Virus record (IMG/VR): IMGVR_UViG_3300037419_000317
Strand: one strand, 5' to 3'
Length of the DNA: 64,000 bases
Origin: a virus
The translations under genes and the position numbers were made by a program. A model generated the notes under the pieces. The model made no database searches. It was not told where the DNA came from and was given only the letters and a program-made list of their open reading frames with translations. This document shows, piece after piece, positions 14,268-15,482 of this stretch (positions within the stretch are counted from its first letter, which is position 1; each line of letters starts with the position of its first letter).

Positions 14268-14273
14268 TAAGGG

Positions 14274-14300
14274 GGCCGCGTAAGCGGCCTTTGTTATTTC
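14274..14300. terminator. terminator hairpin between convergent genes
   Basis: GGCCGC-GTAA-GCGGCC followed by TTTGTTATTTC. Lies between 13851-14267 (+) and 14308-14619 (-). Confidence 0.7.
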
Positions 14301-14307
14301 TGGCTAC

Positions 14308-14619
14308 CTATCTACCAAATTCCTTTTCCAGCGCCTTACAGGCCACTCTAAGCAACGCTGTGAGCTTCTTTGCGTAGCTGTTACTCTTCCCTGTTGCTTC
14401 CATCACTGAGGAAGTCTTAACAACTGGCAGAGTAGAAATCAGTACATATAGCAGGTTACGCGAGACAGGACGAACGTTACCACCCAAGTCTAGATTGGAG
14501 ACACCTGTAATTACATCGTCTACAAAAGGATAGTCGTCACAAGCTTGACCGTACAGAGGGTATCCTATGAGTTCTTCTACAAGGAAGGAATTGTTATATT
14601 CATATTCTTTCTTAGCCAT
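14308..14619 (-). CDS. hypothetical protein, possible HTH DNA-binding (103 aa)
   Basis: AAAGGAA SD. The only leftward gene in the 17-kb rightward arm. The C-terminal TSSVMEATGKSNSYAKKLTALLRVA looks helix-turn-helix-like. Abuts the repeat array. Confidence 0.6.
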   Translation of the reverse strand: MAKKEYEYNNSFLVEELIGYPLYGQACDDYPFVDDVITGVSNLDLGGNVRPVSRNLLYVLISTLPVVKTSSVMEATGKSNSYAKKLTALLRVACKALEKEFGR

Positions 14620-14644
14620 ACATTCCTTTCTTTAAAGCAATAAA

Positions 14645-14813
14645 TCATAAAGATCACCTATAGAGTGTGAGAGAGCTATCGACAGATAGCGAACGACTGT
14701 ACAGGAGAATTCTGCAGGTCTTCTAGGTGAACATGGCAGAAATTCATAAAGATCACCTATAATAAGGGAAGCCCGACAGGGCGACCCTGTAGAGGATTCA
14801 TAAAGATCACCTA
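14645..14813. repeat. three direct copies of TCATAAAGATCACCTA (iteron-like), each with a GATC
   Basis: Exact 16-mers at 14645-14660, 14744-14759 and 14798-14813. Copy 3 is flanked by CCTGTAGAGG at 14786 and 14823. Confidence 0.9.
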
Positions 14814-14900
14814 ATAGAAGCTCCTGTAGAGGAAACCGGCAGTATATCATAGAAGTTCTTTAGAGGCCACCCGACGACAACTGTTAGAATCTTCTACAAT

Positions 14901-14972
14901 CCTGTAAAGTAAAGTAGATTTATGATAGTAAGAGAGCGAAAGCGAACTTAAAACTGTAAAGATCCTGTAAAG
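14901..14972. repeat. short direct repeats CCTGTAAAG / CTGTAAAGATC in an AT-rich segment
   Basis: CCTGTAAAG at 14901 and 14964. CTGTAAAGATCC at 14954 carries a fourth GATC. Confidence 0.7.
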
Positions 14973-15164
14973 AGTAGAATATTTATTGGTTGCTACCTTA
15001 TTCGTGCTGTTCACACGAATGCTCTCGCGGTAGGGGATAGTAGATGTATTGTTGTTTGGATGCAACAGAATAAGAAAGTTTAAGAATTTTGTGTGCGATG
15101 CTTGACAGAGGGTTTTGAGTGTGCAACCATGAGGCATCTTAACAGCATTTCTACAGGGCCAGCC

Positions 15165-15482
15165 ATGAACAAACTTTCTGCAATGCAGGCTGTACACAAA
15201 GGCTTGAAAGCCGGTTTTCCTGCTGTGAATGGTTGGATGATTGACACCAAAACGATTAAGCTAGAAGATAGCAGCATCAATGCAGTGGCCTACAAAGAGT
15301 TTAACACCAATGGTCGCAATTTCATTGTGTCTGTTGGGGGCGAGCTTGTAGGCACCGTCTACTATCGCACAGGAAGTCAGTTTGTTGCGTTCGACCTCAA
15401 AAAGAACGAAATTAGTACGTATACCGGTGATGGTGCAGAGTTTAAATGCTTTGTTGATCTTGTGTTGAGTGCAAGGGGATGA
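15165..15482 (+). CDS. hypothetical protein (105 aa; start uncertain)
   Basis: Track ORF 15093-15482. ATG 15165 lies downstream of the TTGACA at 15102. ATG 15129 is the alternative start. Confidence 0.5.
   Translation: MNKLSAMQAVHKGLKAGFPAVNGWMIDTKTIKLEDSSINAVAYKEFNTNGRNFIVSVGGELVGTVYYRTGSQFVAFDLKKNEISTYTGDGAEFKCFVDLVLSARG

What the first reader, a model, noticed from the sequence alone, without database searches (positions are those of the whole stretch)
14308..15110. Iteron-like GATC repeat array next to the only leftward gene of the early arm (candidate origin or regulatory hub)
A 480-bp non-coding gap separates the lone minus-strand gene 14308-14619 from the resumption of rightward genes. 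That gene encodes 103 aa with a C-terminal HTH-like segment.

The gap holds three exact copies of TCATAAAGATCACCTA, at 14645, 14744 and 14798 (spacing 99 and 54 bp). Each copy contains a GATC. A fourth GATC sits in the related CTGTAAAGATCC at 14954.

Other repeats in the gap: CCTGTAGAGG twice (14786, 14823) bracketing copy 3, CCTGTAAAG twice (14901, 14964), and the palindrome CTGTACAGG (14697). An AT-rich stretch follows at about 14890-14990.

Iterons plus clustered Dam-type GATC sites plus an AT-rich segment is the classic architecture of iteron-type origins such as P1 oriR and oriC-like origins. It also fits a multi-operator or centromere-like site bound by the adjacent small protein. No replication initiator gene is recognisable nearby, so the cognate binder would be novel.
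Basis: partly seen in the sequence, partly recalled or inferred. Interest (0 to 1): 0.62.

Follow-up and report, generated by a model that had tools for sequence, protein, structure and literature searches.

The report
Repeated control sites of a phage gene
The three exact repeats are real, but they are most likely binding sites through which a small accessory phage DNA-binding protein controls its own gene, not a replication origin.

Summary
TCATAAAGATCACCTA occurs exactly three times (14645, 14744, 14798). It is the only 12-mer or longer present three or more times in the 64 kb window.

The origin reading is not supported:
- The GATC is lost in the most distant close relatives.
- Spacing ranges from 39 to 99 bp with no helical phasing.
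- There is no skew turn at the gap.
- Ten TerL-related phage genomes carry no motif, and none has the close ortholog of the 103-aa gene (seven lack the protein family altogether).

What holds instead:
- Every genome with a close ortholog keeps 2-3 co-oriented copies of a ~25-bp block.
- The block always lies in the leftward-transcribed leader or intercistronic spacer of that gene.
- The gene-proximal copy usually supplies the gene's Shine-Dalgarno and ATG.
- In a sister clade the block has other sequences. Where two copies are present they are identical to each other, with unrelated flanks.
- Motif class tracks the protein's HTH recognition-helix class in 7 of 7 genomes.

Best reading (confidence about 0.5): operator repeats bound by the adjacent PHROG-3360-family HTH protein for autoregulation. 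Whether this acts on DNA or on mRNA is unresolved.

This is a new variant of a known kind, of moderate interest.

The parts
14308..14619 (-). 103-aa gene. It is a short member of the PHROG 3360 family: an acidic N-terminal half and a basic C-terminal HTH-like half.
   Evidence: Nine homologs at 64-94% identity. AF2 pLDDT 88 with six helices. PHROG 3360 hit in 10 of 10 members. BFVD structural relatives at TM 0.76-0.84, all uncharacterised. No PDB fold match.
14271..14292 (+). GC hairpin terminator of the upstream rightward gene. It also bounds the 3' end of the leftward unit.
   Evidence: Terminator scan.
14643..14667 (-). Gene-proximal copy (core 14646-14660). On the mRNA strand it reads TAGGTGATCTTTATG, an extended SD plus ATG. 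In this window the ATG is 29 nt from the real start and out of frame. In 7 other lineages it is the annotated start codon.
   Evidence: There are 0 of 25 substitutions inside a 9%-diverged patch against L050-52.
14675..14690 (.). Hairpin GCTATC-GACA-GATAGC next to the proximal copy.
   Evidence: Only the loop differs in L050.
14724..14731 (+). Inverted partial copy (TAGGTGAA). In the mRNA it can pair with the SD of the middle copy.
   Evidence: (I14, I17). Not seen in relatives.
14742..14766 (-). Middle copy (core 14745-14759).
14766..14787 (.). Two-tier hairpin GGG-AA-GCCC-GACA-GGGC-GA-CCC. A covarying equivalent precedes the proximal copy in L001, L053, L054, L055, L057 and L061.
   Evidence: Covariation count: 78.6% of cells paired against 59.9% in shuffles (0 of 500), with 3 compensatory pairs.
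14796..14820 (-). Distal copy (core 14799-14813).
14841..14869 (-). Candidate leftward sigma70 promoter TGGCCT-N17-TATACT. It would place the distal copy at about +20 of the transcript.
   Evidence: It is the best leftward PWM hit in the gap, score 9.7. Stronger promoters occupy the same position in L001 (15.2) and L054 (12.2). Inferred, not shown.
14899..15049 (.). AT-rich divergent-promoter spacer with a 63-bp periodic repeat (ATCCTGTAAAG...TTTAT). It is not part of the conserved array.
   Evidence: (D2, D4).
15103..15131 (+). Candidate rightward promoter TTGACA-N17-AACCAT for the next gene (ATG 15166).
   Evidence: Gene start taken from the L050 gene call.

Best explanation
The repeats are operator-type recognition sites of an accessory early-region cassette.

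How I think it works:
1. A leftward promoter just right of the distal copy transcribes a leader that carries the 2-3 direct copies, then the 103-aa gene. In most relatives a consensus sigma70 promoter upstream of a 60-aa partner gene does this job instead.
2. The gene product is a PHROG-3360-family protein with a basic C-terminal helix-turn-helix. It recognises the asymmetric ~25-bp block.
3. Occupancy of the copies shuts down its own synthesis. The gene-proximal copy matters most, because in most genomes it contains the Shine-Dalgarno and the ATG.
4. I lean towards double-stranded DNA binding that blocks elongating RNA polymerase, because the blocks have no RNA structure an HTH could read. 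Occlusion of the ribosome site on the mRNA, as shown for Aca2, is the close alternative.

Shown: conservation, co-occurrence, orientation, position in the transcription unit, concerted change of the copies, and motif class tracking helix class.

Inferred: the binding itself, its sign (repression) and its level (DNA or RNA).
For: 1. All close orthologs (L001, L050-L061) keep 2-3 co-oriented copies, with the first copy abutting the gene.

2. Ten TerL-related genomes have neither the motif nor a close ortholog.

3. Position in the transcription unit:
- Consensus leftward promoters TTGACA-N17-TATAAT lie upstream of a 60-aa gene that precedes the array in L053, L055, L056 and L058 and in the long-homolog loci L091-L093.
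- Where that gene is missing, a promoter lies 27-37 nt from the distal copy.
- The array is therefore always in the leader or the intercistronic spacer.

4. The proximal ATG is the gene callers' start in 7 lineages. The N-terminal extensions are 12, 21, 30, 36, 36, 39 and 39 nt, all in frame.

5. The block is not the phage's usual ribosome-binding site.

6. Sister clade (L098-L106):
- The block differs between genomes: GGTGTCGTTAAT, GGTGTCGGTAAT, GGTGACGCTAA, GGGGGCCGTA.
- Where there are two copies (all but L105, which has one) they are identical over 13-19 nt, with unrelated flanks.
- Helix class RQAQRY goes with GGTG-type blocks in 4 of 4 genomes. Helix class RQ(A/S)RKY goes with GGGGGCC in 3 of 3.
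- L058 and L061 change block positions 7-8 together with the helix, KSNSYAKK to KSKSHSQK.

7. Inside a 9%-diverged patch against L050-52, the c1 block has 0 of 25 changes and the spacer 11 of 51.

8. The long homolog gives weak HTH hits (Sigma70_r4_2, HTH_23, ParB-like).

9. Precedent: Aca2 and Aca1 are HTH autoregulators with sites in the 5' UTR, at the ribosome site and between genes (PMC13551039).
Against:
- The sites lie downstream of the promoters, not on them. That is unusual for DNA operators.
- The helix-motif association may rest on only one or two evolutionary events. The tree is star-like, and the AU test does not reject one clade (p = 0.295).
- Two long homologs (L092, L093) have no repeats, and L105 has a single copy.
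- The identity of the copies could in principle be kept by gene conversion.
- The proximal copy is genuinely a translation start region, so part of its conservation has a simpler cause.
- The window's own leftward promoter is weak (score 9.7).
Confidence: 0.5

Rival explanations
1. The element acts purely at the RNA and ribosome level. Each copy is a strong translation start cassette (in-frame UAG stop, 8-nt SD AGGUGAUC, UUU, AUG). The upstream copies start short uORFs or act as ribosome standby or stabiliser sites that relay ribosomes to the main start. No phage protein is involved.
For: - AGGTGATC is complementary to the 16S 3' end (known sequence, my knowledge). The ATG lies 8 nt after the GG.
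- The proximal ATG is the real start in 7 lineages.
- The distal copy lies 11-17 nt after the stop of the 60-aa gene, a normal intercistronic distance.
- 6 of 11 spacings are multiples of 3, and four uORFs end at the next copy's TAG.
Against: - In the sister clade the distal copy has no ATG at that position in L098, L099, L103 and L104, yet it is identical to the proximal copy.
- The spacer between SD and ATG, and the third base of codon 2, are as conserved as the SD itself.
- Lineage-specific variants are shared by both copies. The host ribosome cannot explain that.
- The uORF peptides are not conserved.
- 6 of 11 in-frame spacings is not significant.
Confidence: 0.15
2. Each copy is a rightward (antisense) promoter. 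The conserved block sits in its spacer. The promoter makes short RNAs that begin with the covarying GNNA-loop hairpin and act against the leftward leader.
For: - Weak TTGCAA at -10..-5 of the block numbering, then 17-18 nt, then TAWWWW. The invariant T14 and A15 would be the first two bases of the -10 hexamer.
- PWM scores reach 12.8 (L001 c1) and 10.6 (L054 c1).
- The hairpin starts about 7-10 nt after the -10-like hexamer and is more stable on the + strand in 6 of 8 units.
- The window + strand folds with z = -3.6 to -4.9.
- The block resembles T7 and SP6 promoters (my knowledge).
Against: - The last base of the hexamer (promoter position -7) is T in only 10 of 20 copies.
- The -35-like element carries little information.
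- The strand asymmetry in folding is not general.
- G-U evidence is split: L056 and L057 favour the + strand, L061 the - strand.
- No T7-type RNAP was found in five complete relatives, although that search had no positive control.
- The PAK_P3 class uses sigma70 promoters (PMC10914365).
- A conserved spacer would still need a binding factor.
Confidence: 0.12
3. The array is an iteron-type replication origin or a centromere-like site, served by the 103-aa protein.
For: - Direct repeats lie next to a small DNA-binding-type gene.
- In this window each copy contains a GATC, and an AT-rich stretch lies nearby.
- There is a weak ParB-like HTH hit.
Against: - The GATC is lost in L058 and L061.
- There are only 2-3 copies, at unphased spacings of 39-99 bp.
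- The AT-rich stretch is replaced by a gene in L053, L055-L058 and L061.
- Five complete relatives lack the motif and the close ortholog; G004, G005 and G007 lack the family altogether.
- Cumulative skew passes straight through the gap.
- The protein shows no initiator-like fold.
Confidence: 0.05
4. The repeats are recombination junctions for shuffling early-region cassettes, in the manner of the promoter-stem-loop repeats of T4-type phages.
For: - The early arm is hyperplastic.
- The window and L050-52 differ only in a patch whose right edge is at the middle copy.
- The cassette is present or absent among relatives.
Against: - The copies lie inside the cassette, not at its borders.
- There is only one breakpoint observation.
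- The motif occurs nowhere else in the genome.
Confidence: 0.05

Closest known systems
Aca-type HTH autoregulators of phage anti-defence operons (Aca2, Aca1)
   Same: A small phage HTH protein sits at the end of a short operon driven by a strong early promoter. Conserved cognate motifs lie in the 5' UTR, at the ribosome site and between genes. Motif and gene co-occur (PMC13551039).
   Different: There is no sequence or Pfam relationship. The sites are asymmetric direct repeats without hairpin structure, not inverted repeats or hairpins. No site lies on the promoter. The upstream 60-aa gene is not a known Acr.
Iteron origins (P1 oriR, RepA-type plasmids)
   Same: Direct repeats lie beside a small nucleic-acid-binding gene. 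This genome also has GATC in the repeats and an AT-rich neighbour.
   Different: The spacing is irregular and there are only 2-3 copies. The GATC is not conserved. The array is transcribed as a leader. The cassette is dispensable in relatives. There is no initiator fold.
Monomeric or head-to-tail binders of asymmetric direct repeats (P1 C1 operators, P2 Cox and 186 Apl boxes); recalled from knowledge, not tested
   Same: Small phage regulators that read non-palindromic sites arranged as direct repeats.
   Different: Those sites overlap promoters or attachment sites. Here they lie downstream of the promoter and on the translation start. No homology was tested or found.
Autogenous translational operators of phages (T4 RegA, gp32, gp43); recalled from knowledge
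   Same: The recognition site covers the SD and AUG of the regulator's own message.
   Different: Those proteins are not HTH proteins, and their operators are not reiterated upstream.
T7/SP6-type single-subunit RNAP promoters
   Same: On the + strand, ATCACCTATAG resembles the CACTATAG core and is followed by a purine-rich start and a hairpin.
   Different: No such polymerase was found in five complete relatives (no positive control). The motif is confined to one locus.

Membership tests
Iteron-type replication origin | Several iterons at regular, helically phased spacing | tested here: not met
   There are 2-3 copies. Spacings are 99/54, 79, 69, 59/76, 68, 39, 57, 45 and 70 bp.
Iteron-type replication origin | Conserved Dam GATC sites in or near the iterons | tested here: not met
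   The GATC is replaced by CATC or CCTC in L058-L061. Three of the four GATCs in the gap are the repeat itself.
Iteron-type replication origin | Cognate initiator gene | tested here: inconclusive
   The 103-aa protein has an HTH but no match to any solved fold or Pfam family. The long homolog modelled poorly (pLDDT 58).
Iteron-type replication origin | Conserved among close relatives, as an essential function would be | tested here: not met
   The motif is absent from 10 TerL-related genomes, five of them 100% complete.
Iteron-type replication origin | Adjacent AT-rich unwinding element and strand-skew switch | tested here: not met
   The AT-rich stretch exists in the window (GC 0.307). In several relatives a gene takes its place. 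There is no skew turn.
Autoregulatory HTH protein with cognate operators | DNA-binding-type fold | tested here: met
   AF2 gives a C-terminal three-helix HTH-like unit. The long homolog gives weak Sigma70_r4_2, HTH_23 and ParB-like hits.
Autoregulatory HTH protein with cognate operators | Sites co-occur and co-vary with the gene | tested here: met
   All loci with a close ortholog have the motif, and 0 of 10 related genomes without one do. Motif class follows helix class in 7 of 7 genomes in clade B. This may be only 1-2 events.
Autoregulatory HTH protein with cognate operators | Sites overlap the promoter | tested here: not met
   The copies start 27-37 nt downstream of the -10 hexamer, or lie in an intercistronic spacer.
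Autoregulatory HTH protein with cognate operators | Protein binds the sites and represses | not testable with these tools
   This needs EMSA or footprinting, and reporter assays.
Single-subunit RNAP promoter | Cognate polymerase gene in the genome, and promoters ahead of many genes | tested here: not met
   No PF00940 match in five complete relatives or in G001, although the search had no positive control. The motif is confined to one locus.
PHROG 3360 (function unknown) | Profile match | tested here: met
   10 of 10 members of A1 match, best E = 2.5e-6. The long homolog L091 matches at 6.8e-19 over profile positions 8-142 of 162.

The most novel reading that the evidence does not exclude
A previously uncharacterised HTH family (PHROG 3360) reads an asymmetric, unstructured ~25-nt sequence on its own mRNA as well as, or instead of, on DNA. 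Reiterated single-stranded operators in the leader capture the protein and close the ribosome site. This would be a translational autorepressor of a new type. Its specificity has switched repeatedly together with its recognition helix.
Probability: 0.22. Interest if true: 0.6.

Novelty: new variant of a known kind. Interest (0 to 1): 0.4.

Why it matters
It attaches a testable function (sequence-specific nucleic-acid recognition and autoregulation) to a function-unknown phage protein family. That family has 192 clusters at 50% identity and includes genes of therapeutic Pseudomonas phages of the PAK_P1 and PAK_P3 groups.

It also offers natural specificity variants: four motif types paired with two helix types in the sister clade, plus two more motif types here. 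These make a compact system for studying how an HTH and its site co-evolve.

It removes a false origin call from a phage whose replication origin remains unknown.

Tried and rejected
- Phage-RNAP promoter look-alike: no PF00940 hit in G001 or in five complete relatives. The class uses sigma70 promoters.
- Coding repeats: the 72-aa minus-strand ORF 14632-14850 reads each copy as GDLYE/D. It is open only because 99 and 54 are multiples of 3. Five of 11 spacings in relatives are not, and no such ORF is conserved.
- Rfam: no match at E <= 1.
- A search of IMG/VR for the exact 16-mer gave only single chance hits.
- DNA search against 50,697 phage records found no match.
- A PDB profile search found only spurious glycosyltransferase hits.
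- Metagenome scan: only distant domain homologs inside larger proteins, one of them on an 897-kb bacterial contig, and none with the motif.
- phiMK gp159, the Pakpunavirus homolog, sits in a co-directional operon with no intergenic spacer, so it is uninformative.
- Alignments A2 and A4 were too diverse for the search for related loci. P0010 was not found in IMG/VR.
- The G-U strand test of the hairpin was split, so it is not decisive.
- Strand asymmetry of leader folding is strong in the window but not general.
- The blocks themselves have no local RNA structure.
- The AF2 model of the long homolog was too poor to search.

Full report
**1. The observation**

The sequence is as described.
- TCATAAAGATCACCTA is exact at 14645, 14744 and 14798.
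- The other short words and the fourth GATC are at the stated positions.
- No further copy exists in the 64 kb window, even with three mismatches.
- It is the only word of 12 or more bases present three times. No 14- or 16-mer occurred three times in 200 block shuffles.
- The GATC excess (4 in the gap against 1.83 per kb) is mostly the repeat counted three times.
- The AT-rich stretch 14890-14990 is real (GC 0.307, lowest 1%).
- Cumulative GC skew runs straight through the gap.

**2. What the window is**

- Terminase, portal, major head protein and a 1984-aa tape measure place it in a roughly 90 kb tailed phage.
- Its large terminase is 41% identical to that of the PAK_P3 / Felix-O1 class.
- The PAK_P3 class is transcribed from sigma70-type promoters (PMC10914365).
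- No T7-type RNA polymerase was found in five complete relatives, although that search had no positive control.
- The resemblance of ...ATCACCTATAG to T7/SP6 promoters is therefore taken as a look-alike.

**3. The adjacent gene**

- The 103-aa protein has nine homologs at 64-94% identity.
- It models confidently (pLDDT 88) as six helices, with an acidic N-terminal half and a basic C-terminal helix-turn-helix-like unit.
- It matches no solved fold and no Pfam or NCBIfam family.
- It has confident structural relatives among uncharacterised proteins of Pseudomonas and Klebsiella phages, P3_CHA included.
- It belongs to PHROG 3360, function unknown.
- An exhaustive profile search found 192 clusters at 50% identity. 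These are either stand-alone proteins or the C-terminal domain of 160-290-aa proteins.

**4. Comparative anatomy of the array**

I fetched the DNA around the homologs.
- Every genome has 2-3 copies of CATAAA-[G/C][A/C]-TCACCT[A/G]. All have the same orientation relative to the gene, and the first copy abuts the gene.
- The conserved block is about 25 bp.
- The GATC is lost in L058-L061.
- Spacings are 99/54, 79, 69, 59/76, 68, 39, 57, 45 and 70 bp.
- Read on the gene's strand the core is TAGGTGATCTTTATG: an in-frame TAG, an SD complementary to the 16S 3' end, and an ATG.
- In seven lineages that ATG is the gene callers' start. The N-terminal extensions are all multiples of three: 12, 21, 30, 36, 36, 39 and 39 nt.
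- In this window it is 29 nt from the MAKK start, which has its own AAAGGAA.
- AGGTGAT is not this phage's usual SD, which is AGGA/GGAG.

**5. Direction of transcription**

- In L053, L055-L058 and L061, and in the long-homolog loci L091-L093, a ~60-aa HTH-like gene lies upstream on the same strand.
- Consensus TTGACA-N17-TATAAT promoters were found upstream of that gene in L053, L055, L056, L058 and L091-L093. The array is the intercistronic spacer.
- The window lacks that gene.
- In the window, L001, L054 and L103, a leftward promoter lies 27-37 nt from the distal copy.
- The array is therefore always in the leftward-transcribed leader.
- This rests on promoter prediction.

**6. The cassette is dispensable**

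- Ten genomes with 63-91% identical terminase, five of them 100% complete, contain no copy of the motif.
- None of them has a close ortholog. Seven lack the family and three carry long, distant homologs.
- The surrounding early arm has no DNA similarity to those genomes.
- An essential origin would not behave this way.

**7. Concerted change of the copies**

In the long-homolog clade the spacer again holds two copies of a related but different block (L105 has one). The proximal copy supplies the SD and ATG.

| Locus | Block | Recognition helix |
|---|---|---|
| L098, L106 | TAATAGGTGTCGTTAAT | RQAQRY |
| L099 | TAATAGGTGTCGGTAAT | RQAQRY |
| L104 | TTATAGGTGACGCTAA | RQAQRY |
| L100, L103, L105 | TAATAGGGGGCCG(TA) | RQ(A/S)RKY |

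- Where two copies are present they are identical over 13-19 nt, while their flanks are unrelated.
- In L098, L099, L103 and L104 the distal copy has no ATG at the position. It is therefore not kept as a translation start.
- Motif class tracks helix class in 7 of 7 genomes.
- The tree is unresolved, and the AU test does not reject a single origin of the GGGGG class (p = 0.295). This may be one or two events.
- In the window's own clade, L058 and L061 change block positions 7-8 together with the helix, KSNSYAKK to KSKSHSQK.
- Against L050-52 the window differs only in a patch from 14356 to 14744. Within it the proximal block has 0 of 25 changes and the spacer 11 of 51.

Taken together this points to recognition by a lineage-specific factor. 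The adjacent protein is the obvious candidate.

**8. DNA or RNA**

For RNA:
- All copies are co-oriented with the gene.
- All lie in transcribed sequence.
- One copy lies on the ribosome site.
- Spacing is free.
- Aca2 and Aca1 are precedents.

For DNA:
- The protein has an HTH.
- The blocks have no RNA secondary structure that could mimic a duplex.

A covarying two-tier hairpin with a GANA loop lies next to the proximal copy in most genomes. Its strand and role remain open. Folding asymmetry favours the + strand in the window, L001 and L053 but is not general. I lean slightly towards DNA.

**9. Verdict**

- The iteron, Dam and origin reading is not supported.
- The rivals, in order, are reiterated translation-start cassettes, antisense promoters, recombination junctions and an origin.
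- This is a new variant of a familiar kind of phage regulatory module, attached to a protein family with no known function.

Noticed in passing
window 14356-14744: The window is identical to L050-L052 on both sides of this ~390-bp patch, which is about 9% diverged. The patch covers most of the 103-aa gene, the proximal copy and the spacer. Its right edge is at the middle copy. It looks like a recombination or gene-conversion patch.
   Followed up: partly
window 14899-15049: Three copies of a ~20-25-nt AT-rich unit (ATCCTGTAAAG...TAGAnnTTTAT) recur at exactly 63-bp intervals, between the candidate leftward and rightward promoters. This is not part of the conserved array, and its function is unknown.
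   Followed up: no
L053, L055-L058, L061, L091-L100, L105 and L106 (not in the window): A conserved ~60-aa HTH-like gene (MPRKNFSY..ATV.QIVEHF..SS.QAI...) sits behind a consensus sigma70 promoter and heads the operon in most relatives. It also occurs in genomes that lack the 103-aa family (G005, G007). It has no Pfam or PHROG match.
   Followed up: partly
L053 3415-4095, L056 1256-1651, L104-L106 and L091 1883-2446: GIY-YIG-type genes (weak Pfam hits) or GIY-YIG-like ORFs (L091, by eye only) often follow the homolog in the same operon. This suggests freestanding homing endonucleases that have colonised the cassette.
   Followed up: no
window 15093-15482: The listed GTG-start ORF probably starts at ATG 15166 (105 aa, as called in L050). 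A TTGACA-N17-AACCAT promoter lies at 15103-15131, inside the nominal ORF.
   Followed up: partly
L066 2063-2776 (897-kb bacterial contig): The LDLGGNTRP...HTH domain also occurs as the C-terminus of a 237-aa bacterial protein. An SRAP peptidase gene and an XRE-like gene lie nearby, possibly in an integrated element.
   Followed up: no
between copies in both clades, for example window 14786-14795 and 14823-14832, and L098 1160-1180: A second conserved word, TGTGCA(A/G)GAG / CTGTAGAGG, followed by a CT-rich run, precedes most copies by 12-25 nt on the gene strand. It is nearly identical between L054 (clade A) and L098 (clade B). Its function is unknown.
   Followed up: partly
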